In this document: positions 1 to 45,542 of the stretch, piece after piece
Numbering within the stretch: the stretch's first letter is position 1
Layout of the letters: each line of letters begins with the position of its first letter
NCBI RefSeq assembly: GCF_016798325.1
Contig: NZ_JAERVO010000003.1
Coordinates: forward strand, 455,608-519,607
Length of the DNA stretch: 64,000 nt
Reading direction: 5' to 3'
Origin: Marinobacter mangrovi
GTDB taxonomy: Bacteria > Pseudomonadota > Gammaproteobacteria > Pseudomonadales > Oleiphilaceae
Notes under the pieces: model-generated
The model's input: the letters and a program-made list of their open reading frames with translations, nothing else
Database searches by the model: none
What the model was told of the DNA's origin: nothing
Position numbers and translations under genes: made by a program

Positions 1-1409
1 CCTACGCGTTGATGCACGAAGCCAATGCGGCCGACCTGGACAGCCAGCGCAGCGACTACGAACACTACGACTACCCGGGCCGCTTCAAGGGCGATGCCTC
101 CGGCCAGCCCTACACCGAAGCGAGACTGGACAGCCTGCGCAAGGACGCCAGCCTCGGAAGTGGCGAGAGCAACCGCCCGGACTTCAGCGCCGGGGCCAAG
201 GTCACCCTCTCCGGCCACAGCACCGACAGCCTCAACCGGGACTGGCTGATCACCACCGTCAAACACACCGGCAAGCAGCCCCAGGCGCTGGAAGAGGAAG
301 GCGGTTCCGAGCCCACCACCTACAGCAACACCTTCAAGAGTGTGCCGGGGGATACCGCCTGGCGGCCGGAGCCGCCCGCCAGACCGATCATGGACGGCCC
401 GCAGATCGCCATCGTCACCGGACCCCAAGGTGAAGAAATCCACTGCGACGAGCACGGCCGGGTCAAGGTCCGGTTCCCCTGGGACCGTTACAGCCAGAAC
501 GACGAACACAGCAGCGCCTGGCTGCGGGTCAGCCAGGGCTGGGCCGGGGGCAGCTACGGCTTCATGGCGTTACCCCGCATCGGCCACGAGGTCATCGTCT
601 CCTTCCTCGATGGCGATCCGGACCAGCCGATCATCACCGGGCGCACCTACCACGCCACCAACACGCCGCCGTATGCGCTGCCGGAGCACAAGACCCGCAC
701 GACCTTAAAGACCCAGACCCACAAGGGCGAGGGCAGCAACGAACTGCGCTTCGAGGACGAGGCGGACAAGGAACAGATCTACGTCCACGCCCAGAAGGAC
801 CTGGACCTGCTGACCGAGAACGACCGCACCGAGGTGGTCCACAACAACAGCCACCTGACCGTCGACAACGACCGCTACGCCCACATCCAGGCCAACGACC
901 ACAGCACCATCGATGGGGAGAAGCGGGAGAAGGTGTGCCAGGACCACAGCTTCGACGTCACCGGAACGATCCACCTCAAAGCCGGCAGCGCCTGGCTCAG
1001 CGAATCCGGACAGGAACTGCACATCAAGGCGGGCCAGAAAGCCGTCATCGAAGCCGGCGCCGAAATCACCCTCAAAGGCGGCGGCAGCTTCGTCAAGATC
1101 GACCCCAGCGGCGTGGCCCTGAGTGGTCCGGCGATTAACCTCAATGCGGGTGGTTCGGCGGGGAGTGGATCGGGGCAGGGCGTTAAGGTGCCGGACGCGC
1201 CCCAGACCCTGGAAGCGCATAAGGGCGAGAAGGTCGAGCCCGAGGTTCTGGCTGAAGTCGGTCAACGCCCTGTGGCCAAGCCCGTGGTCATACACCGCCT
1301 TAAACAGGCGCGAATTCAACGCTCAGCTTTGGTGGAGCAATGCCAGGAGCAGCCCGATGGTACCTGCCCTCTGAGTGACTGCCCTTGCGGCAAGTCTTCA
1401 GTCGTATAG
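1..1409 (+). CDS. vgrG: T6SS spike protein VgrG, C-terminal portion (5' end lies upstream of window)
   Basis: ORF 9..1409 open to window edge; VgrG C-terminal region with 'GRTYHATNTPPYALP', 'LRFEDEADKEQIYVHAQKDLDL' and later VgrG-like repeats; Gly/Ser-rich tail. Confidence 0.85.
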   Translation, partial: YALMHEANAADLDSQRSDYEHYDYPGRFKGDASGQPYTEARLDSLRKDASLGSGESNRPDFSAGAKVTLSGHSTDSLNRDWLITTVKHTGKQPQALEEEGGSEPTTYSNTFKSVPGDTAWRPEPPARPIMDGPQIAIVTGPQGEEIHCDEHGRVKVRFPWDRYSQNDEHSSAWLRVSQGWAGGSYGFMALPRIGHEVIVSFLDGDPDQPIITGRTYHATNTPPYALPEHKTRTTLKTQTHKGEGSNELRFEDEADKEQIYVHAQKDLDLLTENDRTEVVHNNSHLTVDNDRYAHIQANDHSTIDGEKREKVCQDHSFDVTGTIHLKAGSAWLSESGQELHIKAGQKAVIEAGAEITLKGGGSFVKIDPSGVALSGPAINLNAGGSAGSGSGQGVKVPDAPQTLEAHKGEKVEPEVLAEVGQRPVAKPVVIHRLKQARIQRSALVEQCQEQPDGTCPLSDCPCGKSSVV

Positions 1410-1421
1410 GCGAGGGCGATC

Positions 1422-1985
1422 ATGAAACCAAAGCTGAACAGCAAGACTGTATTCGTCATTATCGAGGGTCATCCGAAGCGGCCTGTTCTGCCAGGACTGT
1501 ATGACCTTGAGCCGCAGCCCCATTGGCAGTACCTGTTTGCGGATACGGAGTGGGCCTCCTACCAATCGGAAAGCCCTTTAGTGATAAAGATCGATGCCGG
1601 CTCACCGTTTTTGCGAAGCGTTATAGATGATATGCAAAGCCCGGAAGGCTGGCGTGGTCTGATCCTGGAGTCGCAGGACGATTTCGATACCGTATTGTCC
1701 TGGGCCCGGCAACGACTGACCGTCGTCTTCGACCCACCTCGAACCGGACTGCTGCGCTACTACGACCCACTGATTTGGCACGCTCTCTGTACAACCGGAG
1801 AAAGGATAGGGGAGACCATCCAGCACGGGCACTACTGGGTGGAAGACGTGGAATCAGGGGCATGGCACTCGTTGGAATATCCGGAGCCGGTAGCCGACCC
1901 TACCAGACCCAGCCTGAGTTCGTCGCAGCTTCAGGCGATTACAGTTCTAGCAAGTCGCCGCAACAACGGCCAGCCTCGCAGTTAA
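1422..1985 (+). CDS. DUF4123-family T6SS effector adaptor/chaperone (Tap/Tec-like)
   Basis: 187 aa directly after vgrG; motifs matching DUF4123 ('SPLVIKI', 'WARQRL', 'LRYYDPLIW'); canonical position between vgrG and cargo effector. Confidence 0.7.
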   Translation: MKPKLNSKTVFVIIEGHPKRPVLPGLYDLEPQPHWQYLFADTEWASYQSESPLVIKIDAGSPFLRSVIDDMQSPEGWRGLILESQDDFDTVLSWARQRLTVVFDPPRTGLLRYYDPLIWHALCTTGERIGETIQHGHYWVEDVESGAWHSLEYPEPVADPTRPSLSSSQLQAITVLASRRNNGQPRS

Positions 1986-1997
1986 AGGAAGACAAGG

Positions 1998-4900
1998 ATG
2001 TCAGAAAACCAAACGAACCAAGCTTCAGCCAGCACTGGCCCAGCCTGTGAAGGCGAGAACCTGATCATTGAAGTCATTGGTAAGAACCATCCTGAGGGTC
2101 AGTCATTTCGTCTTTTCGACACCACGAATATGGTTCAGCAGGAGTGGTTAGAGAATCAGGTCAAAACGGAAGAGTTGGACGACAGTATTCTCCATGTCTG
2201 GCCTATGAAAGGCGAAGATGACAAAAACGTCTGGTTGGAAATGGCCGCGGATGAAGGCGATCCAATCCGGGTACCGTTCCTGAAGGAGGAGGGGGCTGTC
2301 GAACGACAGTCTGAGCGCCAGAAGCATGTCATTCTCCCGGTAGTGCCGGCGACGTTGATCCAGGGGGTAACCCTGAAGGAAAGTAACCCGGCCCATCACG
2401 TCATGCTGCGTGCAGGATTTCTTTACATATTTCATGAAGGAAAGCTCTGGAGAGAAATTGAAGTCCGAATCTCTGAAAAAGGTGTGACGACTTACCACGA
2501 TGTACCGGTATCGCAGTATCGAGCAGAAGGCGGGTTTGAGTATGGTTCCCGGAAAGCGACGGGCACCGGTCTGACTGAGATTTGGTTGCCTGCTCGCATA
2601 AATGGTGCTTGGCTGGATATACAGGTGGCCTACAGTGAGTTTCAACTGCCTTCCGCCCGTTTGAGGTACTTCGAAAAATCGGGCCGAAATCGCGAAGACC
2701 GGTTCAACTTCATTCATCTTGAGCTTGAAAGGCCAGATACCGAGGAAGGTGAAACGCGTCTGTTTGGCACCGGACCTGATCATGCTTTCCTCGCCGAGAA
2801 TCTCAAACCCCAGCGCCCTCGCAAACCGGCAGTAGAGTGGCAATGTGACCGTCCTGGTCGCTACCTGTGTGACGTTAATGGTGAATATCCCAAAGCAAGT
2901 TGGAATGACGCCAAAACGATTCATCAACGGCAAGAGTCCCAAGAGCTCGAGGACGAGATATACGAGGACGAGCGTCCGGAAATGGGCGCTTTATCGCTTT
3001 GCCTTGAAAGAACCTTGGAAGAACTGGAAAGCAGCAACGACAACGCAGAGGAAGCAAGGCAAGAGGATCAGAGCGATAACGCCGGGTCTTCGGAGCCCTC
3101 ACTCTGGGAATCAGGCGGTCAGTGTGTTCCTGACGCTTTGCAGGATGCACGGGATCGAGGCATTGGATGCATCTCGGTAGACGATGGCATTTATCGTCTA
3201 CGCTATCTTACCCAGCGAAAGTTGATAGCTGACTGGTTCAACAGTGCGGCGGTAAGAAGGGCCAAATGTCGGCCCTATTTCGATTCGGCATTTCTTGTCC
3301 ATTCCACCATCGTGCCTTCCGACTTCGATGGTAAGCCAAACCCTCTCCACAAGTTTATTTCAGAGCTATCTTCGACGGGCCGCAATGAAATTGATCGTTC
3401 GGTTGCGAACTCTGAACGGACGATGGCGCAACGGTATTTTGAGCATCTCCAGCGTGACTTACTGGTCGCCGTTAACAATATTGGAATACAAAGCGCGTTG
3501 ACCGATATGTTTACGTGCGATGGTTTCGACTACGCCGGAGCGTTTCAGTTCGTCAGCGGTATCATGAAGGATCTGGTAAAAGACTCTCGCGAAGCCGATG
3601 CACTGAACCTGCACAAAGGCGACACCTCAGAAAACGATGCAAAGCAATGGTTTCGAGGCTTTTGTCGGGGCGAGAACAGTGCTTCGCTCTTTAGCATTCT
3701 TTTCCCCAAGGCAACTCCCGAAACGCTCGAATCCCCTTACGTTGTGCCAGATGAGCCGGAAGAAAACGATGGCAGCGGTCTGTTTCGCGGGACCGAACTG
3801 GCGAAGCTGGAGAATGCGGACTTGCCCAAAGTTGAAGACGTCCAAACATTTCACGGTCTCGAACTCGTTGCGGCCGCACATGAGGGCGTTTTTACGTCGA
3901 TGCTGGCATTTTACGTGCGGGCCGGTAGTGGGATTCTGATGAATATCCACGGCGAGCTTTGGTCAGCCATTCATGACGCTGAGAAAAAGCTGACCGATGA
4001 CCCTGAGTTCAAGAAGAAGCGCCAGGAGTTGGTCGATCTCGACAAGCAGCTGAACGAAGTCAATGACGAGCGAGGGAACCTCAGAAAACAAAGAGCGGCC
4101 GCCCGGAATACCGTCGCAAGAGTGGATGAACTGTATGAAGAGCTTGGCGAAAAAAAAAGGAACTTGCAGCAAGCCAGGCAAGTAAAGGCAAGACAACTGA
4201 ATGAGATCAATAGCAAGGCTGTAACCGCAAAGATGCGTTTGTACGCGGCGTCTCTCCAACAAATTCGAGCTTCACTCCCCAATTTTTGGGGTGAAATGAC
4301 TTTTGAGCGTCTGTCCAAAGCTCTACAAAGTGATTACTACGTGATCGGCTGGCTGGATGATTTGGGCGATGAATCGAACACCAATCAAGGTGTTCGGGTT
4401 TTTGGTGACATCTTTGATGAAAGCACCGAAGAACGAACGTCCGTCGCATCGACAAATAGAAGACGGGCAAACGCCCAAGGCATTGACTCGGAAGCGCCAG
4501 AAGAAGCGCGGCTTCTGGTTTTACCGAAGAGCGCCAAGGCGGCAAAGGCTCTGCTCGAACTCAGCAGCAAGGAAAGTGCGGTCATCGCGGCAGAGAAGCA
4601 AGCAGAGGCGGCCAAGAAGGCTTTCGTTGAAGGGGGGCACGCTGGTACCAACGCTCGGCAGCGTCTTCAAACTGCAACTGAACAACTTGATGAGGCAAAT
4701 AAAAAGTTCAAGGAGCTTACATCACGCATGGGGTCGCTGCGGGAGGATGTAGATGCCCCTCAAAAGGTCATTGCCGAGACGAAGGGTGGGGTGGCATATC
4801 GCTCTTTGAACACGCCTGTTTTACCTGCGTTTGTGATGTTGGTAGAAGTTTATAATTTTTCTGCCAACTATAGCAGTTACGACGCCCTAGAAAGGAAGCG

Positions 4901-6062
4901 AGGCGTAATAAGAGCTTTCGGGGGGCTAGGAAGTGCTGCATACGATTTAACTCTTACCGCAAGTATACTCGCAGAGCGATTTCAGAATGCGATACCCAAA
5001 CAGCTTGGCCGAACGAGTCGATTAGTTACTGCGATGTCTGCGAAGCTGGATAAGGAGGTTAGCGGTCGAATAGGCTTATTACTAGCGAGGTTGGCAGGCG
5101 GACCGGTTGTGATGAGAGCGGCGCTTGGTGCAGCAGGTGCTTTGGCTACCGGTTTTATATTTCTGTCCGACGCCTTCCATGCTTTTGATATGGGGAACAC
5201 AGGGGTTGGCATTGGTTACAGTTTGCTTGCAGCAGGCAGTTTTGCGATGGCCATCAGTAGTGTTGGGGCCACTCTTCTGTTTATCGGCCCCTTAGGGTGG
5301 ATGGCGATCGGCATTGCTCTATCCATTGCTGGAGCACTTGGCGTTTGGTGGTTCAGCGAAGACCCCATAGAGACCTGGATGAGTCAGGGGCCGTTTGGCG
5401 ATTCAACGGAGCTGTCTTTTCTTAAAGACCCTGACGAGTCGTACTACCGGTTGATTAGCCTGTTAATGGGCGTGCGAATCTCTTGGGAGTCCAACCAGAA
5501 ACGAGCCGAGGTGCTTAAGGGCACCATTGAGAGCGAAGGCAAGCTGCTGGAAGCGCAACTTGAAGCCGATTCCTGCCTACGGATTGAGAGTCCCATTCCC
5601 GGTTTGTTCGAGGATTCAGAGAAGAAAAGATTGGATGCTTACTTGCGTCTTGTAGAAAAAGTTGATGCGCACGTTGAATCCAGCCCTTCTGAAAAAACTG
5701 GGAGAGGTCGGTTTGAGTTGCCGCCAGGACAACGCCTTATTGAGGGCGAAGAATTGAAAAAGTACGCCTTGTTCAGGGAGAAGATAGATAACGGATGGTT
5801 GGTTTATTTAAAGACTCCCAAGCCTCATAGAGTTGAAAAGAAAAGCTGGTTCGGAGGCACGCGAACAAACTTGTATACCTATGCGTGGAGCGTAAGGGCT
5901 CAGATTCATGTTCAGGACGATGGGCGTGATGTGGTGTTCCCGGCACCGCCACCGGACGATCCGTTGACATATGATAAGGCTGATCCGGAGCATACAACGC
6001 CAGATTTTTCAGAAACAGATAAAGACTTTTGGTTCGATGAACAGGTTAATCAAGATGGATGA
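1998..6062 (+). CDS. Large T6SS cargo effector (1354 aa), VasX-like: MIX-like motif, central coiled coil, C-terminal glycine-zipper transmembrane cluster, conserved about 70-aa tail
   Basis: Follows vgrG + DUF4123; 'LRAGFLYIF' fits the hRxGhhYhh MIX core (nt 2406-2432); Lys/Glu/Gln-rich coiled coil about 3960-4750; hydrophobic Gly/Ala-rich helices about 5064-5355; last 70 aa recur as remnants at 17569-17797 and 43334-43540. Confidence 0.6.
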   Translation: MSENQTNQASASTGPACEGENLIIEVIGKNHPEGQSFRLFDTTNMVQQEWLENQVKTEELDDSILHVWPMKGEDDKNVWLEMAADEGDPIRVPFLKEEGAVERQSERQKHVILPVVPATLIQGVTLKESNPAHHVMLRAGFLYIFHEGKLWREIEVRISEKGVTTYHDVPVSQYRAEGGFEYGSRKATGTGLTEIWLPARINGAWLDIQVAYSEFQLPSARLRYFEKSGRNREDRFNFIHLELERPDTEEGETRLFGTGPDHAFLAENLKPQRPRKPAVEWQCDRPGRYLCDVNGEYPKASWNDAKTIHQRQESQELEDEIYEDERPEMGALSLCLERTLEELESSNDNAEEARQEDQSDNAGSSEPSLWESGGQCVPDALQDARDRGIGCISVDDGIYRLRYLTQRKLIADWFNSAAVRRAKCRPYFDSAFLVHSTIVPSDFDGKPNPLHKFISELSSTGRNEIDRSVANSERTMAQRYFEHLQRDLLVAVNNIGIQSALTDMFTCDGFDYAGAFQFVSGIMKDLVKDSREADALNLHKGDTSENDAKQWFRGFCRGENSASLFSILFPKATPETLESPYVVPDEPEENDGSGLFRGTELAKLENADLPKVEDVQTFHGLELVAAAHEGVFTSMLAFYVRAGSGILMNIHGELWSAIHDAEKKLTDDPEFKKKRQELVDLDKQLNEVNDERGNLRKQRAAARNTVARVDELYEELGEKKRNLQQARQVKARQLNEINSKAVTAKMRLYAASLQQIRASLPNFWGEMTFERLSKALQSDYYVIGWLDDLGDESNTNQGVRVFGDIFDESTEERTSVASTNRRRANAQGIDSEAPEEARLLVLPKSAKAAKALLELSSKESAVIAAEKQAEAAKKAFVEGGHAGTNARQRLQTATEQLDEANKKFKELTSRMGSLREDVDAPQKVIAETKGGVAYRSLNTPVLPAFVMLVEVYNFSANYSSYDALERKRGVIRAFGGLGSAAYDLTLTASILAERFQNAIPKQLGRTSRLVTAMSAKLDKEVSGRIGLLLARLAGGPVVMRAALGAAGALATGFIFLSDAFHAFDMGNTGVGIGYSLLAAGSFAMAISSVGATLLFIGPLGWMAIGIALSIAGALGVWWFSEDPIETWMSQGPFGDSTELSFLKDPDESYYRLISLLMGVRISWESNQKRAEVLKGTIESEGKLLEAQLEADSCLRIESPIPGLFEDSEKKRLDAYLRLVEKVDAHVESSPSEKTGRGRFELPPGQRLIEGEELKKYALFREKIDNGWLVYLKTPKPHRVEKKSWFGGTRTNLYTYAWSVRAQIHVQDDGRDVVFPAPPPDDPLTYDKADPEHTTPDFSETDKDFWFDEQVNQDG

Positions 6063-7110
6063 TGCGCCGGCAATGACAGGTGGGGATGGTCTTTATTATG
6101 GGAATGCAGCCTACCATCCGGAAAAGCTACCAAAGCAGCGACCGCAACTCTTGGATCCCAATCAGTCGGCTTTAAAGCGCATGGCGTCAGCCCGGTTGCC
6201 GTGGGGACATGCCGACAACGTCGTCCCTGACCGAGTCTTCTCAGTCGCTACCCCAAAGGCTCTGCGTGAAATTGAGCGACATGGCAGTCTGTTGGACAAT
6301 ATTGATGATCAAGGGGAAATGGATCATGAGTGCTTTCGCTTTGCGCCGTTAGCGAAAAGGGTTCAGATACTGGATTTGATGGAGGGTCTATCTAAGCTTG
6401 CTGTTAAAATTTTGGTTCCACTTACGATCGTTACGTTGCTATTAGCTTGGTCTGCAACTTCGAACGATGCTTACTGGCAAGATATCATCAATCACTGGTT
6501 TTTTTTCGCGTGTCTGCTTGGGATTCCTGGAGGAATCTGGTTGGTATCGGACTTGCTGATCAAGTACTGTCTCGGCTGGATTCTGAAATCCGGAAAAGGC
6601 CCGATATGGGAGTTCAATCGACGCACGGGCATGGTAACCGTCTGGAAATATCCATTTAAAATCCCGTTTATTCCTCGCGGCAAACCAGAGACCAAGCAGT
6701 TCCCGTTTATAGAGTTCGATGCCTGGGTCAGTGCCCGAGCCGACCGCTACGGCGCTTTGAATCGACTGCGGCTCTTTCATCGGTATAGCCCATGCGAGGT
6801 CGACATCGGAGCGGCTACCGGCGATCACAGCATGCCAGAGTCCTGTTATGCGATGTGGGATTTTATCCAGAACTATATGGACGTCACTCGGCCACTGCCC
6901 GATATCCCCGTGTTGGAACCCCATCGCCACAAGGACCCGGTGACTGTCGAATACGACCGTCGAACCAATCGCCCTGAACGTTATTGGCGTGATATGGACG
7001 ATGAGACATTCAAGGCGTGCGAAAACGAAATGAGCCTCAATGTGCGAATGATGAGCATGCAGAGCCGGGACAATATCATGGCCGGAAAGGTGGTTTACAC
7101 GAGCAGTTAG
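6037..7110 (+). CDS. Cognate immunity protein candidate (family A1), two TM helices + conserved C-terminal domain; start overlaps effector 3' end
   Basis: ATG 6037 inside the last codons of the effector (stop 6060-6062). N-terminal 'AAYHPEKLP' motif, two TM helices, then 'FIEFDAWVS' and 'YAMWDFIQNYMDVTRPLPDIPVLEPHRHKDPVT' shared by 7 paralogs in the window. The track start 5971 is an upstream extension. Confidence 0.55.
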   Translation: MNRLIKMDDAPAMTGGDGLYYGNAAYHPEKLPKQRPQLLDPNQSALKRMASARLPWGHADNVVPDRVFSVATPKALREIERHGSLLDNIDDQGEMDHECFRFAPLAKRVQILDLMEGLSKLAVKILVPLTIVTLLLAWSATSNDAYWQDIINHWFFFACLLGIPGGIWLVSDLLIKYCLGWILKSGKGPIWEFNRRTGMVTVWKYPFKIPFIPRGKPETKQFPFIEFDAWVSARADRYGALNRLRLFHRYSPCEVDIGAATGDHSMPESCYAMWDFIQNYMDVTRPLPDIPVLEPHRHKDPVTVEYDRRTNRPERYWRDMDDETFKACENEMSLNVRMMSMQSRDNIMAGKVVYTSS

Positions 7111-7145
7111 GTCATGAGCTTTTACTGCAAAGGGTAAAGGGCAGG

Positions 7146-7424
7146 TTAGCAGAACCCTGCTACGCCCTTTGGGACTTCGTACAAAACTACATGGATTTGA
7201 CCCAGCCCTTGCCCGATATCCCGATCTGGGAAGCCTACGGCCACCTGGACCCGGTCACAGCAGAGAACGACCGGCAAACCAATCGCCCGGAACGCTACTG
7301 GCGCGATATGGACGACGACACCTTCAAGGCCTGTGAGCGCGAGATGCACTATCGAGTCCACGCACTGCGCACCCTGAGCCGACCGAACATCATGGCCGAG
7401 AAGACGGTTTACGCGAGCTACTAG
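7146..7424 (+). pseudogene. 3' fragment (about 90 codons) of a displaced A1-type immunity gene
   Basis: From 'EPCYALWDFVQNYMD...' to '...KTVYASY*', near-identical to the C-termini of 17772..18848 and 43515..44588; no matching N-terminus; junction with upstream gene at 7111-7150. Confidence 0.6.
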
Positions 7425-7475
7425 CCGTTACACGGTTAATCGTTGAGTGGTTTCCCAGGGAAGGGAAACTGAAAT

Positions 7476-7511
7476 GCAAGCAAACCCTTAATTCACCACA
7501 AGGACCGTGAA
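7476..7511 (+). repeat. Conserved leader 'gcaagcaaacccttaattcaccacaaggaccgtgaaatgcc' preceding ligase gene (copy 1 of 4)
   Basis: Same about 36-40 nt ending at the ligase ATG, also at 10679-10704, 17038-17072 and 44640-44675. Confidence 0.8.
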
Positions 7512-8435
7512 ATGCCCACCCCGCTGTACCAGCGCTGGCTGCCAATTCTGTTTGGCCTCGCCCTGCTATTCCCCGCTTCCGAACTCCACGCCGAAAAACC
7601 ACAACTCACCCTGGCCCAGGTCTACGAAAAGGGCGATGCCCTCAAAGGCTACTGGGTCAGCGAAAAACTCGACGGTGTGCGGGCCTACTGGGACGGTGAG
7701 CACCTGATTTCGCGTCAGGGCCATGCGTTTCATCCGCCGACCTGGTTTACCCGGGATTTTCCGGAGGTACCTCTGGATGGCGAGCTGTGGATGGGACGCG
7801 GGACCTTTTCCGAGCTGTCCGGGGTGGTGCGCAAGCTGGAGCCGGTGGACAGCGAGTGGCGGCAGGTGCATTACGAGATTTTTGATCTGCCCGGGAGTGA
7901 TCGCCCGTTTTCGGAGCGGGTGGCGCGCATGCGGTCGCTGCTCAAGCCTTCGCCATCACCCTACCTCGTTATGATCGAACAGACGCCGGCAACCACGCGG
8001 GCGGCGTTGATGGCGCGTCTGGACGAGGTGGTTGATGAGGGCGGTGAAGGGCTGATGCTACATCGTGGCGGTGCCCTGTATGAAGCCGGTCGCTCGGACG
8101 ATTTGCTGAAGGTGAAGCGGTATCAGGATGCCGAGGCCACGGTGGTGGGCTATTCGCCGGGGCAGGGGAAATACGAGGGCATGCTGGGCGCACTGGTGGT
8201 GGAGCGTTCCGATGGCCGCCGGTTCAAGCTGGGTAGCGGGTTCAGTGATGAGCAGCGTGCGGATCCTCCGGCGATCGGGGCGACGGTGACTTACAAATAT
8301 TATGGGCTGACGTCGACCGGATTACCGCGGTTCGCGAGTTTTATGCGGGTCCGGAATGAAGAGCCGGTCGGAAATGGGGGCAGACTCTGCGCGGCATTCT
8401 GTTCGACAAAGTCGCCACATGATGCTGCTCGATGA
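7512..8435 (+). CDS. Periplasmic ATP-dependent DNA ligase, LigE-like (copy 1, intact)
   Basis: N-terminal signal peptide 'LPILFGLALLFPASELHA'; motif I 'KLDGVRAYWDG' (KxDG adenylation lysine), 'EGLMLH', 'LLKVKR'; about 300 aa, typical of signal-peptide-bearing minimal ligases. Confidence 0.75.
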   Translation: MPTPLYQRWLPILFGLALLFPASELHAEKPQLTLAQVYEKGDALKGYWVSEKLDGVRAYWDGEHLISRQGHAFHPPTWFTRDFPEVPLDGELWMGRGTFSELSGVVRKLEPVDSEWRQVHYEIFDLPGSDRPFSERVARMRSLLKPSPSPYLVMIEQTPATTRAALMARLDEVVDEGGEGLMLHRGGALYEAGRSDDLLKVKRYQDAEATVVGYSPGQGKYEGMLGALVVERSDGRRFKLGSGFSDEQRADPPAIGATVTYKYYGLTSTGLPRFASFMRVRNEEPVGNGGRLCAAFCSTKSPHDAAR

Positions 8436-8486
8436 GAGCAATACATCGCAATTCATGTGTCTGGTCCTGAGTGGTAAAGGAGTTTT

Positions 8487-9485
8487 ATGATGGAGGCATA
8501 CCAGCCAACGGCTTATCGGTTCGATGATATTCCGATTTTACCCAGCGGCGGGCATCCAAAGTTGGATAAGGTATTTGAGCGGCTCTCTTGGGGGCATTAT
8601 CAAACGCCAGTCGTACCTAATGCGGTGGAAGTGCAACTTGCCTATGCAAGTCTTTTCAGTAACGAAAATGACGCTGAGGATGGATTTCCTTGGAATGAAG
8701 AAAGTTTTTCTATAGGTAAAGGGTTTTTAAATGGTTTTCAGTCTTTGTTGTATATGATTCATATATGCGCTGTTCTTTTGTTTTATCTCGCTTTATTTCC
8801 CCTTTTTTTTAGCATTATTTTTTATTTTGTTGATGAATTGAGGTTGTCCGCGCTGTATACTATTGCTCAAAGTTTCACTATTATGTAGGTGGTTATAGCG
8901 GCGCTATACGTCCTAGGGAAGTATGGAAGGCTATTGTTGGCTCAAGTTTCCGAAAAAGCGCAAAGAGCAAATCCAACAGGTCTCTATCGTCGCGAAGGGT
9001 TGGTCCGCATAAAAAACCGGAAAGAGGTTTTTACCGCACCCTTTATCGAGTTCGATGCCTATTGTGTCCATTCCCCTTCCGGCCGTGGTAGTCGCTATTA
9101 CAATCTTGTCCTCCAGCATCGCTACAGCGAGGAACAGCTTTGGATGAAAGGACTGCTAACCAATGCGATGAATCCGCAAGATGTCTACGCCTACTGGGAC
9201 ATGGTCCAGCAGTTCATGGACGTGAGTCACCCTCTGCCGGACGTGCCGGTTTTTGAGCCCTTCCGTCATCGCGATCCAGTAACCGCCGAAGAGGACGCCC
9301 GTACCGGGCGTGATCCATTCCATTGGCGCAAAATCACGCCGGAATCCTGGCGGGAGCATTACGAATCAAAATATCGAGCGCGACTACTCAACGCAAATTG
9401 GAATCGCCCCTGCATTATGGATGCTCGTATTGAAGGCAGGGGGATACCCGCCAATGAACCGCCCCGCGGTAGTATCCTGGCCTGA
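8487..9485 (+). pseudogene. A2-type immunity paralog interrupted by an in-frame TAG (8886-8888)
   Basis: ORFs 8487..8888 and 8889..9485 are in the same frame, split by a single amber codon; together colinear with the intact paralog 42284..43309 ('DIPILPSGGHPKLDKVFERL', 'YAYWDMVQQFMDVSHPLPDVPVFEPFRHRDPVTAEEDARTGRDPFHWRKITPESWREHYESKYRAR'). Confidence 0.55.
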
Positions 9486-10608: not shown

Positions 10609-10678
10609 ACACTGACATCACCGCAAATAGCGTTACTCAATGACGTCCCATGGACGGGACGCTAAGTCGCAAGCAAAC

Positions 10679-10704
10679 CCTTAATTCACCACAAGGACCG
10701 TGAA
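10679..10704 (+). repeat. Ligase leader repeat (copy 2)
   Basis: 'gcaagcaaacccttaattcaccacaaggaccgtgaaatgcc' core. Confidence 0.75.
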
Positions 10705-10953
10705 ATGCCAACCCCGCTGTACCAGCGCTGGCTGCCAATTCTGTTTGGCCTCGCCCTGCTGTTCCCCGCGTCTGAACTCCACGCCGAAAAAACGCAACTC
10801 ACCCTGGCCCAGGTCTACGAAAAGGGCGATGCCCTCAAAGGCTACTGGGTTAGCGAAAAGCTGGACGGTGTGCGGGCCTATTGGGACGGCGAACACCTGA
10901 TTTCCCGCCAGGGCCATGCGTTTCATCCGCCGACCTGGTTTACCCGGGATTTT
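10705..10953 (+). pseudogene. LigE-like ligase copy 2, truncated after codon 83 by the IS21-family remnant
   Basis: Identical N-terminus through 'PPTWFTRDF'; nucleotide identity to copy 1 ends at 10953, where the track ORF (to 11067) runs on into unrelated IS-derived sequence. Confidence 0.7.
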
Positions 10954-13861: not shown

Positions 13862-14001
13862 TCCAGTAATCGAGGTTTTCCTGACACTGCGTTCTGCCCT
13901 ATTGAACTGACGACTGAGTTAGAAGGATGGCCGGAAAGTCACGGGTGAAGACGGGCTCCGTATCATCCTGGTCGGTAACGATGTGGAGGAACTGGGTGTC
14001 G

Positions 14002-14877: not shown

Positions 14878-15018
14878 TTCCGGGTTGAAAATTTCCTGTC
14901 ACCGCGCTCTACCCCATTGGACTGCGGATCGAGTATGAGAAGCATGGCCGGAAAGTCACGGGTGAAGACAGGCTCCGAATTATTCTGGACGGCAACGATG
15001 TGGAGGAACTGGGTGTCG

Positions 15019-17072: not shown

Positions 17073-17511
17073 ATGCCCACCCCGCTGTACCAGCGCTGGC
17101 TGCCAATTCTGTTTGGCCTTGCCCTGCTGTTCCCCGCGTCTGAACTCCACGCCGAAAAACCACAACTTACCCTGGCCCAGGTCTACGAAAAGGGCGATGC
17201 CCTCAAAGGCTACTGGGTCAGCAAAAAGCTCGACGGTGTGCGGGCCTACTGGGACGGTGAGCACCTGATTTCGCGTCAGGGCCATGCGTTTCATCCGCCG
17301 ACCTGGTTTACCCGGGATTTTCCGGAGGTACCTCTGGATGGCGAGCCGTGGATGGGACGCGGGACCTTTTCCGAGCTGTCTGGCGTAGTGCGCAAGCTGG
17401 ACCCGGTGGACAGCGCCGAGCACATGACAAAGATCGCTGAATTCCCGTGGGACAGTCTCGAAGACAAGATGGAGCAGAGTGTGCCAAACCTGCGCGAAGC
17501 GGCCATGGTTC
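17073..17511 (+). pseudogene. Mosaic fragment: LigE-like ligase codons 1-114 fused in frame to the last 32 codons of an A3-type immunity gene
   Basis: Ligase identity through 'VVRKLDPVDS', then 'AEHMTKIAEFPWDSLEDKMEQSVPNLREAAMV' (the C-terminus of 9589..10608). The track ORF 16971..17630 overextends on both sides. Confidence 0.6.
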
Positions 17512-17568
17512 AAACACTGACATCACCGCAGAAAGGTAGACCCCTTAGGTCTCAGGCAGACCCAGAGC

Positions 17569-17797
17569 TGAAAAGAAAAGCCGGTTCGGAGGCACGCGAA
17601 CAAACTTGTATACCTATGCGTGGAGCGTAAGGGCTCAGATTCATGTTCAGGACGAGGGGCGTGATGTGGTGTTCCCGGCACCGCCACCAGACGATCCGTT
17701 GACATATGATAAGGCGGATCCAGAGCATACAACGCCGGATTTTTCGGAAACGGGTAAAGATTTCTGGTTCGATGAAAAGGTGGTTCAACGTGGGTAG
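17569..17797 (+). pseudogene. Remnant of the last about 75 codons of an effector gene homologous to 1998..6062
   Basis: 'EKKSRFGGTRTNLYTYAWSVRAQIHVQDEGRDVVFPAPPPDDPLTYDKADPEHTTPDFSETGKDFWFDEKVVQRG*' against the effector C-terminus; no upstream effector body. Confidence 0.7.
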
Positions 17798-18848
17798 TGT
17801 TTTCGAGAAGCAGAACCAAGCCGCTGTTCATTACGCGGAAACAGCATACCGGCCAGAGTGCATACCAGAGCAACCTTCACAGCGGGAGGATTATAACCAA
17901 TCAGCTTTGGGGCGCGTCGGCACTGCACGTTTGCCATGGGGATACACCGAAACAGTTATCCCTTTGACCATTTTTTCTCAAGCTTCACCGGGTTTACTTC
18001 GTCGACATGAAAAACATGGAGATCCGTTAGAAGGGACTGGTTACCAGGGAAAAATGGATCATGAATGCTTTCGATATGCGCCTTTGGCCAAGCGATTTCA
18101 GATATTAAATTTAACTGAAATCATTTCCAGATTTATTATTATTATTTTTGGTCCTCTAATGATTTTGGGTTTTATTATAGGATCATTTCTTACATCCAAA
18201 AGTGATTACTGGCATAGTCTAATATACGATGACTGGCGCTCAAATGCTTTAATGTTTGGAGTTCCAATTGGAGTTTGGGTTAGTTCTTGGGTTTTAGGTA
18301 AGCTGTGTTTAGGCTGGTTTTTGAAGGCAGGAAAAGGCCCTCTATGGGAGCTGAAACGCCGCACCGGCATGGTCACCGTGTGGTCCTACCCTCCAAAATT
18401 TCCATTTATTCCCCGTGGCAAGCCTGAGGTTTTTAAAGCCCCCTTTGTGGAATTTGACGCCTGGGTCAGTACCCGTGGTGACCGGGCCGGGATTCTGAAC
18501 CGTCTCCATTTGTTCCATCGTTACAGCAAGTGTGAAGCAGGTGTGGGGGCTGTCGGTGGAGCGACCAGTATGCCTGAGCCCTGCTACGCCCTTTGGGACT
18601 TCGTCCAGAACTACATGGACGTGACCCAGCCCTTGCCCGATATCCCGATCTGGGAAGCCTGCCGCCACCTGGACCCGGTCACGGCCGAGCACGACCGGCA
18701 AACCAACCGCCCGGAACGCTATTGGCGCGATATGGACGACGACACGTTCAAGGCCTGCGAGCGCGAGATGCACTATCGAGTCCACGCACTGCGCACCCTG
18801 AGCCGGCCGAACATCATGGCTGAGAAGACGGTTTACGCGAGCTACTAG
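17772..18848 (+). CDS. A1-type candidate immunity protein (orphan copy), start overlapping the effector-tail remnant
   Basis: Same overlap geometry as 6037..7110; 'YAETAYRPECIP', two TM helices, 'FVEFDAWVSTRGDRAGILNRLHLFHRYS', 'YALWDFVQNYMDVTQPLPDIPIWEACRHLDPVTAEHDRQTNRPERYWRDMDDDTFKACE'. Confidence 0.55.
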   Translation: MKRWFNVGSVFEKQNQAAVHYAETAYRPECIPEQPSQREDYNQSALGRVGTARLPWGYTETVIPLTIFSQASPGLLRRHEKHGDPLEGTGYQGKMDHECFRYAPLAKRFQILNLTEIISRFIIIIFGPLMILGFIIGSFLTSKSDYWHSLIYDDWRSNALMFGVPIGVWVSSWVLGKLCLGWFLKAGKGPLWELKRRTGMVTVWSYPPKFPFIPRGKPEVFKAPFVEFDAWVSTRGDRAGILNRLHLFHRYSKCEAGVGAVGGATSMPEPCYALWDFVQNYMDVTQPLPDIPIWEACRHLDPVTAEHDRQTNRPERYWRDMDDDTFKACEREMHYRVHALRTLSRPNIMAEKTVYASY

Positions 18849-32968: not shown

Positions 32969-32986
32969 TCCACGCCTCGGACCCGT

Positions 32987-42283: not shown

Positions 42284-43309
42284 TTGACTGATCTTGAGAA
42301 GAGTGAACATAGCGGGGCTCCATACTCGGAAACGGCCTATCGCTCCGATGATATTCCCGTTCTGCCCACCGGTGGGCACCCCAAGTTGGATAAGGTATTT
42401 GAACGGCTCCCTTGGGGGAATTATCAAACACCGGTCGTTCCCAATACAGTAGAGACTCAACTTGCCTATGCCAGTCTTTTCAAAGATGAAAAGGACACTG
42501 AAGATGGGTTTCCGTGGGGTGAAGAAAAGATAGCCATTGGGAAAGGTTTTCTGAACGGGTTTCAGGCATTTTTGTACATTACGTATATGTGTGCTTGGTT
42601 GGCTTCGTTAGTTGCTTTGATACCGCTAACAATTAGCTTTTTCTCACTATTTTTACATGGATTCAGCGTCGCCAGCCTTTATAATATTCTATCCGCTTAT
42701 GGGGTTATGTATGCAATCATAGGGGGGCTTTTTTTCGGAGGAAAATACGGTCGCTTGATGTTGGCTTATCTTACCGAAAAACGCCAAAGAGCAAACCCAA
42801 CCGGCCTCTATCGCCGCGAAGGGTTGGTCCGCATAAAAACCCGAAAAGAGGTTTTTTCCGCACCCTTTATTGAGTTCGATGCGTATTGTGTCCATTCCCC
42901 TTCCGGTCGTGGTGGCCGTTATTACAACCTTGTCCTCCAGCATCGCTACAGCGACGAACAGCTCTGGATGAAGGGGATGGTGGCCGATGTGATGAATCGG
43001 CAAGACGTCTACGCGTACTGGGACATGGTCCAGCAGTTCATGGACGTGAGTCACCCTCTGCCGGACGTACCGGTCTTTGAGCCCTTCCGTCATCGCGATC
43101 CAGTGACCGCCGAAGAGGACGCCCGTACCGGGCGTGATCCATTCCATTGGCGCAAAATCACGCCGGAATCTTGGCGGGAGCATTACGAATCAAAATATCG
43201 AGCGCGGCTACACAATGCGAACTGGAATCGCCCCTGCATTATGGACGCTCGTATTGAAGGGCGCGGGATACCGATCAAGGATGAACCTCAGGGCCGCATG
43301 TTGGCTTAG
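42284..43309 (+). CDS. A2-type candidate immunity protein (intact copy)
   Basis: 341 aa; colinear with the pseudogene 8487..9485; 'FIEFDAYCVHSPSGRGGRYYNLVLQHRYS', 'YAYWDMVQQFMDVSHPLPDVPVFEPFRHRDPVT'. Confidence 0.55.
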   Translation: MTDLEKSEHSGAPYSETAYRSDDIPVLPTGGHPKLDKVFERLPWGNYQTPVVPNTVETQLAYASLFKDEKDTEDGFPWGEEKIAIGKGFLNGFQAFLYITYMCAWLASLVALIPLTISFFSLFLHGFSVASLYNILSAYGVMYAIIGGLFFGGKYGRLMLAYLTEKRQRANPTGLYRREGLVRIKTRKEVFSAPFIEFDAYCVHSPSGRGGRYYNLVLQHRYSDEQLWMKGMVADVMNRQDVYAYWDMVQQFMDVSHPLPDVPVFEPFRHRDPVTAEEDARTGRDPFHWRKITPESWREHYESKYRARLHNANWNRPCIMDARIEGRGIPIKDEPQGRMLA

Positions 43310-43333
43310 GAGCAAAAGGGCCTGTTCGGAAAC

Positions 43334-43540
43334 GTGGTCAGTCGGGAGATCGTGAAGTACTCGTGGAGCGCCCGTGTCCAGATCCGCATTGGCAAGAAGG
43401 ACGACCTGATGGTTTTCCCTGCGCCCTTGCCGGACTCTTCATTAACGTACGATAAAAACAATGAAGAACACACCAAGCCGGATTTCTCCGAAACGGACAG
43501 GGTTTTCTGGTTCGATGAAAAGGTGGTTCAACGTGGATAG
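43334..43540 (+). pseudogene. Remnant of the last about 68 codons of an effector gene (divergent homolog of the 1998..6062 tail)
   Basis: 'VKYSWSARVQIRIGKKDDLMVFPAPLPDSSLTYDKNNEEHTKPDFSETDRVFWFDEKVVQRG*'. Confidence 0.6.
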
Positions 43541-44588
43541 TGTTGTAGAAATGCCGAGGCAGACAACTGGTTATTATGCCGATACCGCCTATCGACCGGA
43601 TCGCATACCGGAGCAACCTCCCCAGCATGAGGACCACAACCAATCCGCGCTGGGGCGTTTTGGCACCGCGCGCTTGCCGTGGGGGCATACGGAACCGGTT
43701 GTACCGATTATTGTTTTCGCGAAGGCCCCCCCAAAACTACTGCGTTGGCATGAAGAGCAGGGGGATCCCCTCGAGGGCACTGGCTATCAGGGGCGGATGG
43801 ATCATGAGTGCTTTCGGTATGCACCGCTGGCTAGGCGTTTTCAGGTTTTAAATTTGTCCGAGATTTTTTCCAGATTAACGGTCCTTATTTTTGGCCCTTT
43901 GATGATATTGACGCTGATTATTGGATCGTTTATTTCGTCAGACAAGAATTACTGGCATAGCTTAATTGACGAGTGGCAATCCTTTGCCATGATGTTTGGA
44001 ATTCCAATCGGAATCTGGGTTGTTTCCCGGGTTTTGGGGAAGTTATTTTTAGGTTGGTTCTTGAAAGCAGGAAAAGGCCCTCTATGGGAGCTGAACCGCC
44101 GCACCGGCATGGTCACCGTATGGACCTACCCTCCAAAATTCCCCTTCATTCCGCGCGGCAAGCCAGAGGTCTTCAAGGTGCCATTTGTGGAGTTTGACGC
44201 CTGGGTCAGTACCCGTGGTGACCGGGCCGGGATCCTGAACCGTCTCCATCTGTTCCATCGTTACAGCAAGTGCGATGCGGGCGTTGGTGCCATCGGTGGT
44301 AACACCAGCATGCCCGAACCCTGCTATGCCCTTTGGGACTTCGTACAAAACTACATGGACGTGACCCAGCCCTTGCCCGATATCCCGATCTGGGAAGCCC
44401 ACCGCCACCTGGACCCGGTCACGGCCGAGCACGACCGGCAAACCAACCGCCCGGAACGCTACTGGCGCGATATGGACGACGACACCTTCAAGGCCTGTGA
44501 GCGCGAGATGCACTATCGAGTCCACGCACTGCGCATCCTGAGCCGGCCGAACATTATGGCCGAGAAGACGGTTTACGCGAGCTACTAG
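43515..44588 (+). CDS. A1-type candidate immunity protein (orphan copy)
   Basis: Overlaps the remnant as in the other A1 cassettes; the 3' half is nearly identical in nucleotide sequence to 18330-18848 and 7146-7424. Confidence 0.55.
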   Translation: MKRWFNVDSVVEMPRQTTGYYADTAYRPDRIPEQPPQHEDHNQSALGRFGTARLPWGHTEPVVPIIVFAKAPPKLLRWHEEQGDPLEGTGYQGRMDHECFRYAPLARRFQVLNLSEIFSRLTVLIFGPLMILTLIIGSFISSDKNYWHSLIDEWQSFAMMFGIPIGIWVVSRVLGKLFLGWFLKAGKGPLWELNRRTGMVTVWTYPPKFPFIPRGKPEVFKVPFVEFDAWVSTRGDRAGILNRLHLFHRYSKCDAGVGAIGGNTSMPEPCYALWDFVQNYMDVTQPLPDIPIWEAHRHLDPVTAEHDRQTNRPERYWRDMDDDTFKACEREMHYRVHALRILSRPNIMAEKTVYASY

Positions 44589-44675: not shown

Positions 44676-45542
44676 ATGCCCACCCCGCTGTACCAGCGCT
44701 GGCTGCCATTCCTGTGCAGCCTCGCCCTGCTATTCCCCGCGTCTGAACTCCACGCCGAAAAACCACAACTCACCCTGGCCCAGGTCTACGAAAAGGGCGA
44801 TGCCCTCAAAGGCTACTGGGTCAGCGAAAAACTCGACGGTGTGCGGGCCTATTGGGACGGTGAGCACCTGATTTCGCGTCAGGGCCATGCGTTTCATCCG
44901 CCGACCTGGTTTACCCGGGATTTTCCGGAGGTACCTCTGGATGGCGAATTGTGGATGGGACGCGGGACGTTTTCCGAGCTGTCCGGGGTGGTGCGCAAGC
45001 TCGAGCCGGTGGACAGCGAGTGGCGGCAGGTGCATTACGAGATTTTTGATCTGCCCGGGCGTGATCGCCCGTTTTCGGAGCGGGTGGCTCGCATGCGGTC
45101 GATGCTCAAGCCTTCGCCGTCACCCTACCTCGTTATGATCGAACAGACGCCGGCAACCACGCGGGAGGCGTTGATGGCGCGTCTGGACGAGGTGGTTGAT
45201 GAGGGCGGTGAAGGGCTGATGCTACATCGGGGCGGCGCCCTGTATGAAGCCGGTCGCTCGGACGATTTGCTGAAGGTGAAGCGGTATCAGGATGCCGAGG
45301 CCACGGTGGTGGGCTATTCGCCGGGGCAGGGGAAATACGAGGGCATGCTGGGGGCGCTGGTGGTGGAGCGTTCCGATGGCCGCCGGTTCAAGCTGGGTAG
45401 CGGGTTCAGTGATGAGCAGCGTGCGGATCCTCCGGCGATCGGGGCGACGGTGACCTACAAATATTATGGGCTGACGTCGACCGGGTTGCCTCGGTTCGCG
45501 AGTTTTATGCGGGTTCGGGATGAGGAGCCGGTGGCGGAATAG
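44676..45542 (+). CDS. Periplasmic ATP-dependent DNA ligase, LigE-like (copy 4, intact, 288 aa)
   Basis: Near-identical to copy 1 up to 'MRVRDEEPVAE*'; signal peptide, KxDG motif. Confidence 0.75.
   Translation: MPTPLYQRWLPFLCSLALLFPASELHAEKPQLTLAQVYEKGDALKGYWVSEKLDGVRAYWDGEHLISRQGHAFHPPTWFTRDFPEVPLDGELWMGRGTFSELSGVVRKLEPVDSEWRQVHYEIFDLPGRDRPFSERVARMRSMLKPSPSPYLVMIEQTPATTREALMARLDEVVDEGGEGLMLHRGGALYEAGRSDDLLKVKRYQDAEATVVGYSPGQGKYEGMLGALVVERSDGRRFKLGSGFSDEQRADPPAIGATVTYKYYGLTSTGLPRFASFMRVRDEEPVAE

What the first reader, a model, noticed from the sequence alone, without database searches (positions are those of the whole stretch)
5971..7424. Recombination scar: current immunity gene followed by the 3' stump of an older immunity gene
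Gene 6037..7110 ends with a divergent C-terminus (...NEMSLNVRMMSMQSRDNIMAGKVVYTSS*). About 35 nt later (7111-7150) a second, in-frame-less copy of the last about 90 codons of an A1-type gene begins (EPCYALWDFVQNYMD...KTVYASY*). This copy is nearly identical to the orphan copies at 18.6 kb and 44.3 kb. This is the signature of an incoming effector/immunity pair replacing a resident one by recombination within the immunity gene. The old 3' end and the downstream ligase gene were left in place.
Basis: seen in the sequence. Interest (0 to 1): 0.55.

Follow-up and report, generated by a model that had tools for sequence, protein, structure and literature searches.

The report
Leftover stump of a displaced immunity gene
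A Marinobacter bacterium swapped one toxin/antidote gene pair of its contact-killing (type VI secretion) system for a foreign pair, leaving the last quarter of the old antidote gene as a dead stump; this is a clear example of a process already described in other bacteria.

Summary
A complete 351-codon immunity gene (6055-7110) is followed by a unique 41-nt spacer. Then come the last 90 codons plus stop (7152-7424) of a second, "A1-type" immunity gene. This stump is 94% and 96% identical to the 3' ends of the intact copies at 17772-18848 and 43515-44588, and 70% identical to the tail of the gene just upstream.

The source is Marinobacter mangrovi. A 97%-identical relative (L003) carries the undisturbed layout: effector, full A1 immunity gene, ligase, endonuclease V. 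M. bohaiensis (L002) carries the incoming effector/immunity pair.

I mapped both ends of the replacement. Window 1995-2339 and 7152-8373 are L003-like. Window ~2349-7124 is M. bohaiensis-like. The left crossover lies in the conserved 5' part of the effector gene. The right join is non-homologous, at codon 268 of the old immunity gene.

This fits homology-facilitated illegitimate recombination, as proposed for Vibrio cholerae immunity arrays. Two points need correcting: the right join is not a homologous crossover, and the ligase is no longer next to its native flank. A 36-kb block and a second immunity-ligase copy now lie between them.

It is a new example of a known kind and of modest interest.

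The parts
9..1409 (+). 3' part of vgrG, the T6SS spike gene, cut by the window start
   Evidence: TIGR03361 VgrG 393 bits; Gp5_trimer_C and Phage_base_V
1422..1985 (+). DUF4123 adaptor/chaperone gene
   Evidence: PF13503 E 1.4e-12. Close to neither L003 nor L002: 103 vs 73 informative sites over 1139-1994
1998..6062 (+). 1354-aa VasX/BTH_I2691-like membrane-targeting effector. It is chimeric: 1998-2339 is resident (L003-like), 2349-6062 is incoming (M. bohaiensis-like)
   Evidence: NF041559 E 5.8e-15 and VasX_N E 2.4e-4, both below the curated cut-offs. 88% aa identity to the M. bohaiensis protein P0122. Identity profiles
2340..2349 (.). Left (homologous) crossover point of the replacement
   Evidence: Informative sites: 49 L003-like / 13 L002-like over 1995-2339; 43 / 561 over 2342-4100
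6055..7110 (+). Current immunity gene (Imm1), 351 aa, with a predicted two-helix membrane hairpin. It overlaps the effector stop by 8 nt
   Evidence: 100% identical to P0001; 84% and 80% to orthologues in Marinobacter sp. JSM 1782161 and M. bohaiensis. Hydropathy
7111..7151 (.). Unique 41-nt junction spacer, probably the native sequence downstream of Imm1
   Evidence: BLAST collinearity with L002 and L001 runs to 7124. A gapped alignment continues weakly to about 7148. No other match anywhere
7152..7424 (+). Stump: codons 268-357 plus stop of a displaced A1-type immunity gene
   Evidence: 94.1% to 18576-18848, 95.6% to 44316-44588, 91% to L003, 93% to L081. 8 private substitutions, 5 synonymous and 3 non-synonymous
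7512..8435 (+). Lig E-type ATP-dependent DNA ligase, copy 1. Its native last codons and stop are lost (homology ends at 8373), giving a 19-aa read-through
   Evidence: NF006592 380 bits. 97% aa identity to copy 2. 94.8% nt identity to L003 over 7152-8373
17416..17530 (+). A second stump: the last 31 codons of an Imm3-type immunity gene, fused directly to a 402-nt ligase 5' fragment (17014-17415)
   Evidence: 98% identical to 10511-10625
17564..18848 (+). Orphan unit: effector 3' tail (17564-17794) plus an intact A1-type immunity gene (17772-18848)
   Evidence: Effector tail is 91% aa identical to the end of the window effector. The central part of the gene is 98-100% identical to an M. halodurans copy
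43308..44588 (+). Orphan unit: the last ~232 nt of an Eff1372-type effector plus an intact A1-type immunity gene (43515-44588, = P0004)
   Evidence: Start of the 97% collinearity with L003 (43308-54588 = L003 4746-16029)
44676..45542 (+). Lig E-type ligase, copy 2, with the native downstream flank (endonuclease V, NosD-like protein and onward)

Best explanation
The stump is the scar of a module swap at the end of a type VI secretion vgrG cluster.

The resident locus looked like the one still present in a 97%-identical relative: vgrG, DUF4123 adaptor, 1372-aa VasX-like effector, A1-type immunity gene, Lig E ligase.

Incoming DNA from a M. bohaiensis-like donor carried a related effector and its immunity gene. 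It paired with the resident locus in the conserved first ~115 codons of the effector gene; this is the homologous anchor, with the crossover at window 2340-2349. Its other end lay about 40 nt past the stop codon of the new immunity gene. That end was joined without homology to codon 268 of the resident immunity gene, at window 7151|7152.

About 4.5 kb of resident DNA was lost: most of the old effector and the first three quarters of its immunity gene. About 4.8 kb replaced it. The remaining 90 codons have no start codon or membrane segment, so they are most probably a non-functional remnant. The loss was tolerable because two intact A1-type copies remain elsewhere in the region.

Shown: both breakpoints, the identity of the flanks, and the undisturbed and donor-like layouts in relatives.
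Inferred: the order of events, the recombination mechanism (homology-facilitated illegitimate recombination), which genome the event happened in, and the toxin/immunity roles of the proteins.
For: 1. Undisturbed layout. L003 has DUF4123, Eff1372, an intact A1 immunity ORF, ligase, endonuclease V and NosD. It is 97% identical to window 43308-54588 and 94.8% identical to 7152-8373. L081 and L082 show the same island at the end of a full T6SS cluster.
2. Donor-like layout. M. bohaiensis L002 is collinear with window 358-7124 (84% overall, 93-100% over 2955-4000), then diverges into a 4HBT thioesterase gene and a ligase that is only 76% identical.
3. Sharp left switch at 2340-2349: 49/13 against 43/561 informative sites.
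4. Right join. There is no chimeric gene. The complete Imm1 gene, 41 unique nt and then A1 codon 268 follow one another.
5. The same architecture recurs: an immunity stop codon, 0-50 nt, then the remainder of older DNA. It is seen at 43309|43308 and ~17530|17564 in the window and in M. halodurans. C-terminal stumps are also seen in M. algicola (L057, with an internal stop codon), M. halodurans (L006) and a metagenome contig (L111).
6. The mechanism matches the model of Kirchberger et al. 2017 for V. cholerae (PMC5361080).
Against: - The parental sequences are only proxies, 84-97% identical. Microhomology at the right join therefore cannot be read, and the exact end of donor homology is uncertain (7124 to about 7148).
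- The genome holds a second L003-like copy of effector tail, A1 immunity gene and ligase at 43.3-45.5 kb. At least one further large insertion or transfer has to be assumed, and the swap may have occurred in another lineage.
- The L003-like flanks next to the insert are 92-95% identical to L003, not 97%.
- vgrG-3'/DUF4123 (1139-1994) resembles neither proxy closely, so the left side has additional history.
- No reads, expression data or experiments are available.
Confidence: 0.72

Rival explanations
1. Two-step origin. The incoming pair first displaced only the old effector, leaving an intact orphan (effector tail plus A1 immunity gene), as at 17.5 kb and 43.3 kb. A later deletion then removed the effector tail and the first 267 codons.
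For: The two other A1 copies in the window, and the M. halodurans units, keep an effector tail and a full immunity gene. That is the usual outcome. Decayed arrays do occur: an in-frame stop in 8487-9485 and internally deleted copies in L025 and L026.
Against: The left end of such a deletion would have to fall within the few tens of nt after the Imm1 stop, exactly where incoming modules normally end (0-50 nt after the stop at three other junctions). This route needs one more event. No intermediate was found in the genome or metagenome scans.
Confidence: 0.17
2. Assembly artefact. The stump is a mis-join or a duplicated repeat produced by the assembler.
For: The region is rich in repeats. The 1.2-kb repeats 7152-8373 and 44316-45539 are 96% identical, with identical runs of up to 116 nt. 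The M. halodurans assembly breaks apart at such units.
Against: The stump differs from both other copies at 12 and 16 of 273 positions and has 8 private changes. The junction shares no repeat with any other place, so there is no k-mer path for a mis-join. Even if the arms downstream of the two ligase copies had been swapped, the 7111-7152 junction would be unchanged. Analogous stumps exist in independent assemblies.
Confidence: 0.03
3. The stump is kept for a function. It could be a silent cassette that replaces the C-terminal subdomain of the upstream immunity gene by recombination. It could also be a small expressed protein consisting of the C-terminal four-helix subdomain.
For: The stump starts exactly at the predicted boundary of a confident four-helix subdomain: residues 268-337 with pLDDT above 90, preceded by a disordered linker at 259-264. 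An ORF (7017-7424) spans it. Only 3 of its 8 private changes are non-synonymous. Two other stumps (L057, L111) begin within about 10 codons of the same position. A1-type genes are mosaics whose last ~280 nt are 87-100% identical between genomes while their centres are only 50-88% identical.
Against: - There is no start codon in frame with a plausible ribosome-binding context.
- No membrane hairpin is encoded.
- The three private amino-acid changes hit positions that are conserved in the family (V to L, R to G, H to N).
- The longest exact match with the upstream gene's tail is 13 nt at 70% identity, which is poor substrate for recombination.
- The L057 stump has an internal stop codon.
- Other stumps start elsewhere (residues 309 and 312).
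- The conserved block starts where tblastn can begin to detect divergent stumps, which biases the apparent coincidence of start positions.
Confidence: 0.05

Closest known systems
Orphan immunity gene arrays formed by sequential displacement of effector-immunity modules in Vibrio cholerae T6SS clusters (Kirchberger et al. 2017, PMC5361080)
   Same: - A new effector/immunity module enters downstream of vgrG.
- It is anchored by homology on the conserved upstream side, and its non-homologous end is joined illegitimately.
- Old immunity genes, often with a piece of the old effector's 3' end, are pushed downstream and accumulate as arrays.
   Different: - Here the illegitimate end cut into the old immunity gene itself, leaving a 90-codon stump rather than a usable orphan.
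- The genus (Marinobacter) and the immunity family (no Pfam or NCBIfam model) are different.
- Both breakpoints can be placed, to about 10 nt on the left and about 30 nt on the right.
Displaced C-terminal tips and orphan toxin/immunity modules of Rhs and CDI (CdiA-CT/CdiI) loci. This rests on my own knowledge and on their mention in PMC5361080
   Same: The constant 5' part of the toxin gene serves as the homology anchor. The variable 3' toxin part plus the immunity gene is exchanged, and fragments of earlier modules stay downstream.
   Different: The effector here is a VasX/BTH_I2691-like cargo effector loaded through a DUF4123 adaptor, not an Rhs or CdiA protein. The leftover is an immunity-gene fragment, not a toxin tip.
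Tke5-Tki5 of Pseudomonas putida and VasX-TsiV2 of V. cholerae: BTH_I2691-family pore-forming T6SS toxins, each with a membrane immunity protein (PMC13133200)
   Same: - The gene order is vgrG, DUF4123 adaptor, large effector with a C-terminal hydrophobic region, then an immunity gene for a ~35-40 kDa membrane protein immediately downstream.
- This suggests how the products work: a depolarising pore toxin neutralised by direct binding in the membrane.
   Different: - The effector matches the family models only below their curated cut-offs (54.9 bits against 150; 21.6 against 27).
- Homology of the immunity family to Tki5 or TsiV2 was not tested.
- Neither toxicity nor protection has been tested for the Marinobacter proteins.

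Membership tests
E/I-module displacement scar / orphan immunity array (Kirchberger model) | Located directly 3' of a T6SS vgrG-adaptor-effector set | tested here: met
   vgrG, DUF4123 and effector lie upstream. In L081 the same island ends a full T6SS cluster
E/I-module displacement scar / orphan immunity array (Kirchberger model) | The leftover gene is homologous to an immunity gene that is paired with an effector in other genomes | tested here: met
   L003, L004, L081 and L082 have Eff1372 followed by a full A1-type gene. The stump is 91-93% identical to their 3' ends
E/I-module displacement scar / orphan immunity array (Kirchberger model) | The new module is flanked on both sides by resident-type DNA, with a homologous crossover on the conserved upstream side | tested here: met
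   1995-2339 and 7152-8373 are L003-like. 2349-7124 is M. bohaiensis-like, with a sharp switch at 2340-2349
E/I-module displacement scar / orphan immunity array (Kirchberger model) | Non-homologous (illegitimate) downstream junction, typically at a short microhomology | tested here: inconclusive
   The join is non-homologous: a complete gene, 41 unique nt, then codon 268. Microhomology cannot be judged because the parental proxies are too divergent
E/I-module displacement scar / orphan immunity array (Kirchberger model) | The old immunity gene is retained intact as an orphan | tested here: not met
   At this junction only 90 of 357 codons remain. The feature is met at 17772-18848 and 43515-44588
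BTH_I2691 / VasX pore-forming effector with membrane immunity protein | Effector matches the family profile at the curated threshold | tested here: not met
   NF041559: 54.9 bits against a cut-off of 150. PF20249 VasX_N: 21.6 against 27. A homologue is named 'toxin VasX' by NCBI at 29% identity (P0154)
BTH_I2691 / VasX pore-forming effector with membrane immunity protein | DUF4123 adaptor upstream and a membrane immunity gene immediately downstream | tested here: met
   PF13503. Two hydrophobic helices in Imm1 and in the A1-type protein. Helical hairpin at residues 107-184 in the model
BTH_I2691 / VasX pore-forming effector with membrane immunity protein | Toxicity of the effector and specific protection by the downstream gene | not testable with these tools
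   Needs expression and competition assays
Lig E (periplasmic minimal ATP-dependent DNA ligase) | Matches the family model above the cut-off, with an N-terminal signal-peptide-like segment | tested here: met
   NF006592: 380 bits against a cut-off of 200. The N-terminus MPTPLYQRWLPILFGLALLFPASELHA is read from the sequence

The most novel reading that the evidence does not exclude
The last ~90 codons of this immunity family encode a separate four-helix subdomain. Between genomes, their DNA is far more conserved than the centre of the gene. These codons may behave as a recombination module of their own. Under this reading, stumps that begin at its boundary (window 7152, L057, L111) are preferred products or substrates of exchange rather than random debris, and could serve as silent donors for re-tailing the active immunity gene.
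Probability: 0.06. Interest if true: 0.5.

Novelty: new member of a known kind. Interest (0 to 1): 0.3.

Why it matters
It gives a clean, breakpoint-resolved example of how T6SS toxin/immunity repertoires turn over outside Vibrio. The homologous anchor lies in the conserved effector N-terminus and the far end is ragged. The ragged end can destroy an immunity gene instead of preserving it.

It also flags an uncharacterised and widespread immunity family: 324 hits in species-representative genomes, with no Pfam or NCBIfam model. The family has a hypervariable membrane hairpin. Finally, it shows a Marinobacter hotspot where the Lig E gene marks the right edge of the island.

None of this changes current understanding. 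It extends a known model to a new genus and a new gene family.

Tried and rejected
- Pfam, NCBIfam and PADLOC gave nothing for the immunity family, the stump or most island genes.
- PDB sequence searches and a Foldseek search of the AF2 model against the PDB found no relatives.
- An exact search for the junction in JGI metagenomes found nothing.
- A protein-anchored metagenome scan found no close relative of Imm1 (best 44%). No two-step intermediate came to light.
- Look-ups of the source contig by P0001 and P0121 returned nothing on record. The window's left context and the NCBI gene calls at the stump could therefore not be seen.
- The promoter/terminator scan of 5800-8700 was no better than shuffled sequence.
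- I tested whether the 1.2-kb repeats 7152-8373 and 44316-45539 show the hybrid pattern expected from Campbell-type integration of a circle. The three-way site patterns are mosaic and uninformative.
- I considered a fixed recombination site at module ends. The sequences downstream of eight immunity-gene stops share no motif.
- No integrase was found in the 36-kb block among the ORFs scanned.
Full report
**Observation**

The window comes from Marinobacter mangrovi: the protein encoded at 6055-7110 is 100% identical to an NCBI M. mangrovi entry (P0001).

The region opens with the 3' part of vgrG (9-1409). Next come a DUF4123 adaptor gene (1422-1985) and a 1354-aa effector gene (1998-6062). The effector matches the VasX_N and BTH_I2691 models weakly, below their curated cut-offs. 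A 351-codon gene at 6055-7110 overlaps the effector stop by 8 nt.

After a 41-nt spacer, 7152-7424 encodes 90 codons plus a stop, EPCYALWDFVQNYMD...KTVYASY*. This segment is in another reading frame and has no start codon of its own.

Self-BLAST gives:
- 7152-7425 = 18576-18849 at 94.2% (E 1.6e-118).
- 7152-8373 = 44316-45539 at 96.2%. This match runs on through the intergenic region and nearly the whole ligase gene.
- 7150-7418 vs 6836-7104, the upstream gene's own tail, at 71%.

The stump has 8 substitutions found in neither other copy. Its 41-nt junction matches nothing else in the window or in about 110 fetched loci. Only small corrections are needed: the gene starts at 6055 and the spacer is 41 nt.

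**The gene family**

The 351-aa protein belongs to a family with no Pfam, NCBIfam or PDB relative. It is nevertheless common. A scan of species-representative genomes found 324 tblastn-confirmed stretches in Marinobacter, Pseudomonas, Halomonas-group genera, Oceanimonas and others.

Across the loci, members sit directly after vgrG, DUF4123 and a VasX-like effector, singly or in arrays of 2-8 copies.

Hydropathy and an AlphaFold model (pLDDT 78.5) agree on the architecture:
- an N-terminal region;
- a helical membrane hairpin (residues 107-184);
- a beta domain (191-259);
- a disordered linker (259-264);
- a confident four-helix C-terminal subdomain (268-337).

Position, arrays and membrane topology fit an immunity protein to a membrane-targeting toxin. 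The characterised Tke5/Tki5 and VasX/TsiV2 pairs work this way (PMC13133200). For the Marinobacter proteins this is an inference; nothing has been tested.

**Related genomes**

- M. bohaiensis (L002) carries vgrG, DUF4123, a 1354-aa effector and a 351-aa immunity gene. These are collinear with window 358-7124. It then diverges into a short ORF, a 4HBT thioesterase gene and a Lig E ligase that is only 76% identical.
- Marinobacter sp. JSM 1782161 has the same immunity type as a third-position orphan behind a different effector.
- A Logan metagenome contig (L003, with a second sample L004) is 97% identical to window 43308-54588. It shows the undisturbed layout: DUF4123, a 1372-aa effector, an intact A1-type immunity ORF, ligase, endonuclease V, a NosD-like gene and onward. 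Its immunity tail plus ligase is 94.8% identical to window 7152-8373.
- L081 and L082 show an A1-type effector/immunity pair at the end of a complete T6SS cluster in a more distant species.

**Both breakpoints**

A four-way alignment shows the window is 87-98% identical to L003 over 1995-2339, the first ~115 codons of the effector. It then drops to about 60-68%. Identity to M. bohaiensis rises to 82-100% from 2349 onward.

Counting sites where the two references differ:
- 1995-2339: 49 L003-like against 13 M. bohaiensis-like.
- 2342-4100: 43 L003-like against 561 M. bohaiensis-like.

The left crossover is therefore at 2340-2349, inside the conserved effector N-terminus.

On the right, BLAST collinearity with M. 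bohaiensis ends at 7124. A gapped alignment continues weakly to about 7148. L003-type sequence starts at 7152.

About 4.8 kb of M. bohaiensis-like DNA (effector codons ~117-1354, the immunity gene and up to 41 nt more) thus sits between two stretches of L003-like DNA. It replaces about 4.5 kb of the L003 arrangement.

**Mechanism**

The left end is a homologous crossover. The right end is not: no chimeric immunity gene was formed, and a complete gene plus spacer abuts codon 268 of the old gene.

This pattern is what Kirchberger et al. proposed for V. cholerae. In their model a conserved upstream stretch anchors the incoming module and the non-homologous end integrates illegitimately. The old effector is displaced and older immunity genes are shifted downstream (PMC5361080).

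Elsewhere in this window the usual outcome is seen. At 17564 and at 43308 an effector 3' tail and a full immunity gene survive. At 7152 the cut went deeper.

The stump lacks a start codon and the membrane hairpin. Its three private amino-acid changes fall on residues conserved in the family. I read it as a pseudogene fragment. Its loss was tolerated because two intact A1 copies remain.

Comparable C-terminal stumps occur elsewhere:
- M. algicola DG893: after a different effector/immunity pair, upstream of a full immunity gene and the ligase, with an internal stop codon.
- M. halodurans.
- A metagenome contig.
- A second one in this window at 17416-17530.

**What remains open**

- A two-step route (intact orphan first, later deletion) gives the same structure. 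I rate it lower because the left end of the deletion would have to coincide with the normal end of an incoming module, and because it needs an extra event.
- The event may have taken place in another lineage and been imported.
- The ligase next to the stump is not simply "in place". Its homology ends at 8373, two codons short of the native stop, giving a 19-aa read-through.
- That ligase is followed by 36 kb that L003 lacks. This block contains a nonsense-mutated immunity gene and another immunity gene. It also holds two ligase 5' fragments, an IS21 remnant and four low-GC paralogues. Further along are yjf-like genes, a DUF3686 ATPase and more orphan genes. Only then comes the second copy of effector tail, A1 immunity gene and ligase, with the native flank.
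- The two 1.2-kb repeats are about as different from each other as from L003, and they are mosaic. At least one further acquisition must be assumed.
- The stump starts exactly at a predicted subdomain boundary and at the start of the most conserved DNA block. Two other stumps begin within about 10 codons of that point. With so few cases, and with a detection bias toward the conserved block, I treat this as unexplained rather than meaningful.

**Verdict**

The mechanism is refined to a homologous anchor in the effector 5' end plus an illegitimate right join. This is a well-resolved new example of a known process, in a genus and an immunity family where it had not been described. I found no Marinobacter paper on the subject. 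Interest is modest.

Noticed in passing
window 7512-8435, 10646-10953, 17014-17415, 44676-45542: There are two intact Lig E-type (periplasm-targeted) ligase genes and two 5' fragments within 45 kb. In at least ten Marinobacter loci the ligase gene lies downstream of the T6SS immunity array, directly or with one or a few genes between (L001-L004, L012, L013, L018, L022, L054, L057, L081/L082). Lig E has been reported to increase transformation with damaged extracellular DNA (bioRxiv 10.64898/2026.03.22.713542). Its position next to a locus that evolves by DNA uptake may be a coincidence or may not.
   Followed up: partly
window 7152-8373 and 44316-45539: These 1.2-kb direct repeats (96% identical, longest identical run 116 nt) bracket 36 kb that is absent from the 97%-identical relative L003. 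Recombination between them would restore a simple layout of Imm1, stump, ligase and endonuclease V, and would release a 37-kb circle. The origin of the block was not resolved, and no integrase was found among the ORFs scanned.
   Followed up: partly
window 17014-17530: Nucleotide ~402 of a ligase fragment is fused directly to the last 31 codons of an Imm3-type immunity gene (98% identical to 10511-10625, stop codon mutated TAA to CAA). This is the order expected at a tandem-duplication or circle junction of an 'Imm3-ligase' segment.
   Followed up: partly
window 43308-44590 and 17564-18852; L003, L005, L009, L081: A1-type immunity genes are mosaics. The effector tail plus the 5' end is 93-100% identical between genomes, the central membrane-hairpin region only 50-88%, and the last ~280 nt 87-100%. 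The centre of the 17.7-kb copy is 98-100% identical to an M. halodurans copy. The effector's hydrophobic region (4810-5700) and the Imm1 hairpin (6340-6520) are likewise the least conserved parts against M. bohaiensis. This suggests co-varying specificity regions.
   Followed up: partly
window 8487-9485: An immunity-family gene with an in-frame stop codon at 8886-8888 (81% identical to the intact 42284-43309). It is probably a pseudogene.
   Followed up: no
window 12896-16907: Four tandem paralogous genes of ~290-325 aa, 72-74% identical at the nucleotide level, with GC of 39-49% against ~62-66% in the core. They have no hit in Pfam, NCBIfam or PADLOC. They lie between an IS21 remnant (11119-12365) and a ligase fragment, and may be another orphan immunity array.
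   Followed up: partly
window 31028-38292: A 646-aa protein with no family match is followed by a 1745-aa DUF3686/DUF7902/AAA ATPase. There is no PADLOC hit and the function is unknown.
   Followed up: partly
window 24573-28415 (-): A 1280-aa protein made largely of ankyrin repeats, next to a yjf-like cluster (PspA/IM30, DUF2170, DUF1190, glutathionylspermidine synthase-like) at 20.5-30.3 kb.
   Followed up: no
L057 (M. algicola DG893) 7900-8264: Downstream of a 968-aa effector and its 294-aa partner lies a ~20-codon remnant resembling the end of that same effector type. It is fused to an Imm3-type C-terminal stump with an internal stop codon, which points to older nested displacement events.
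   Followed up: partly
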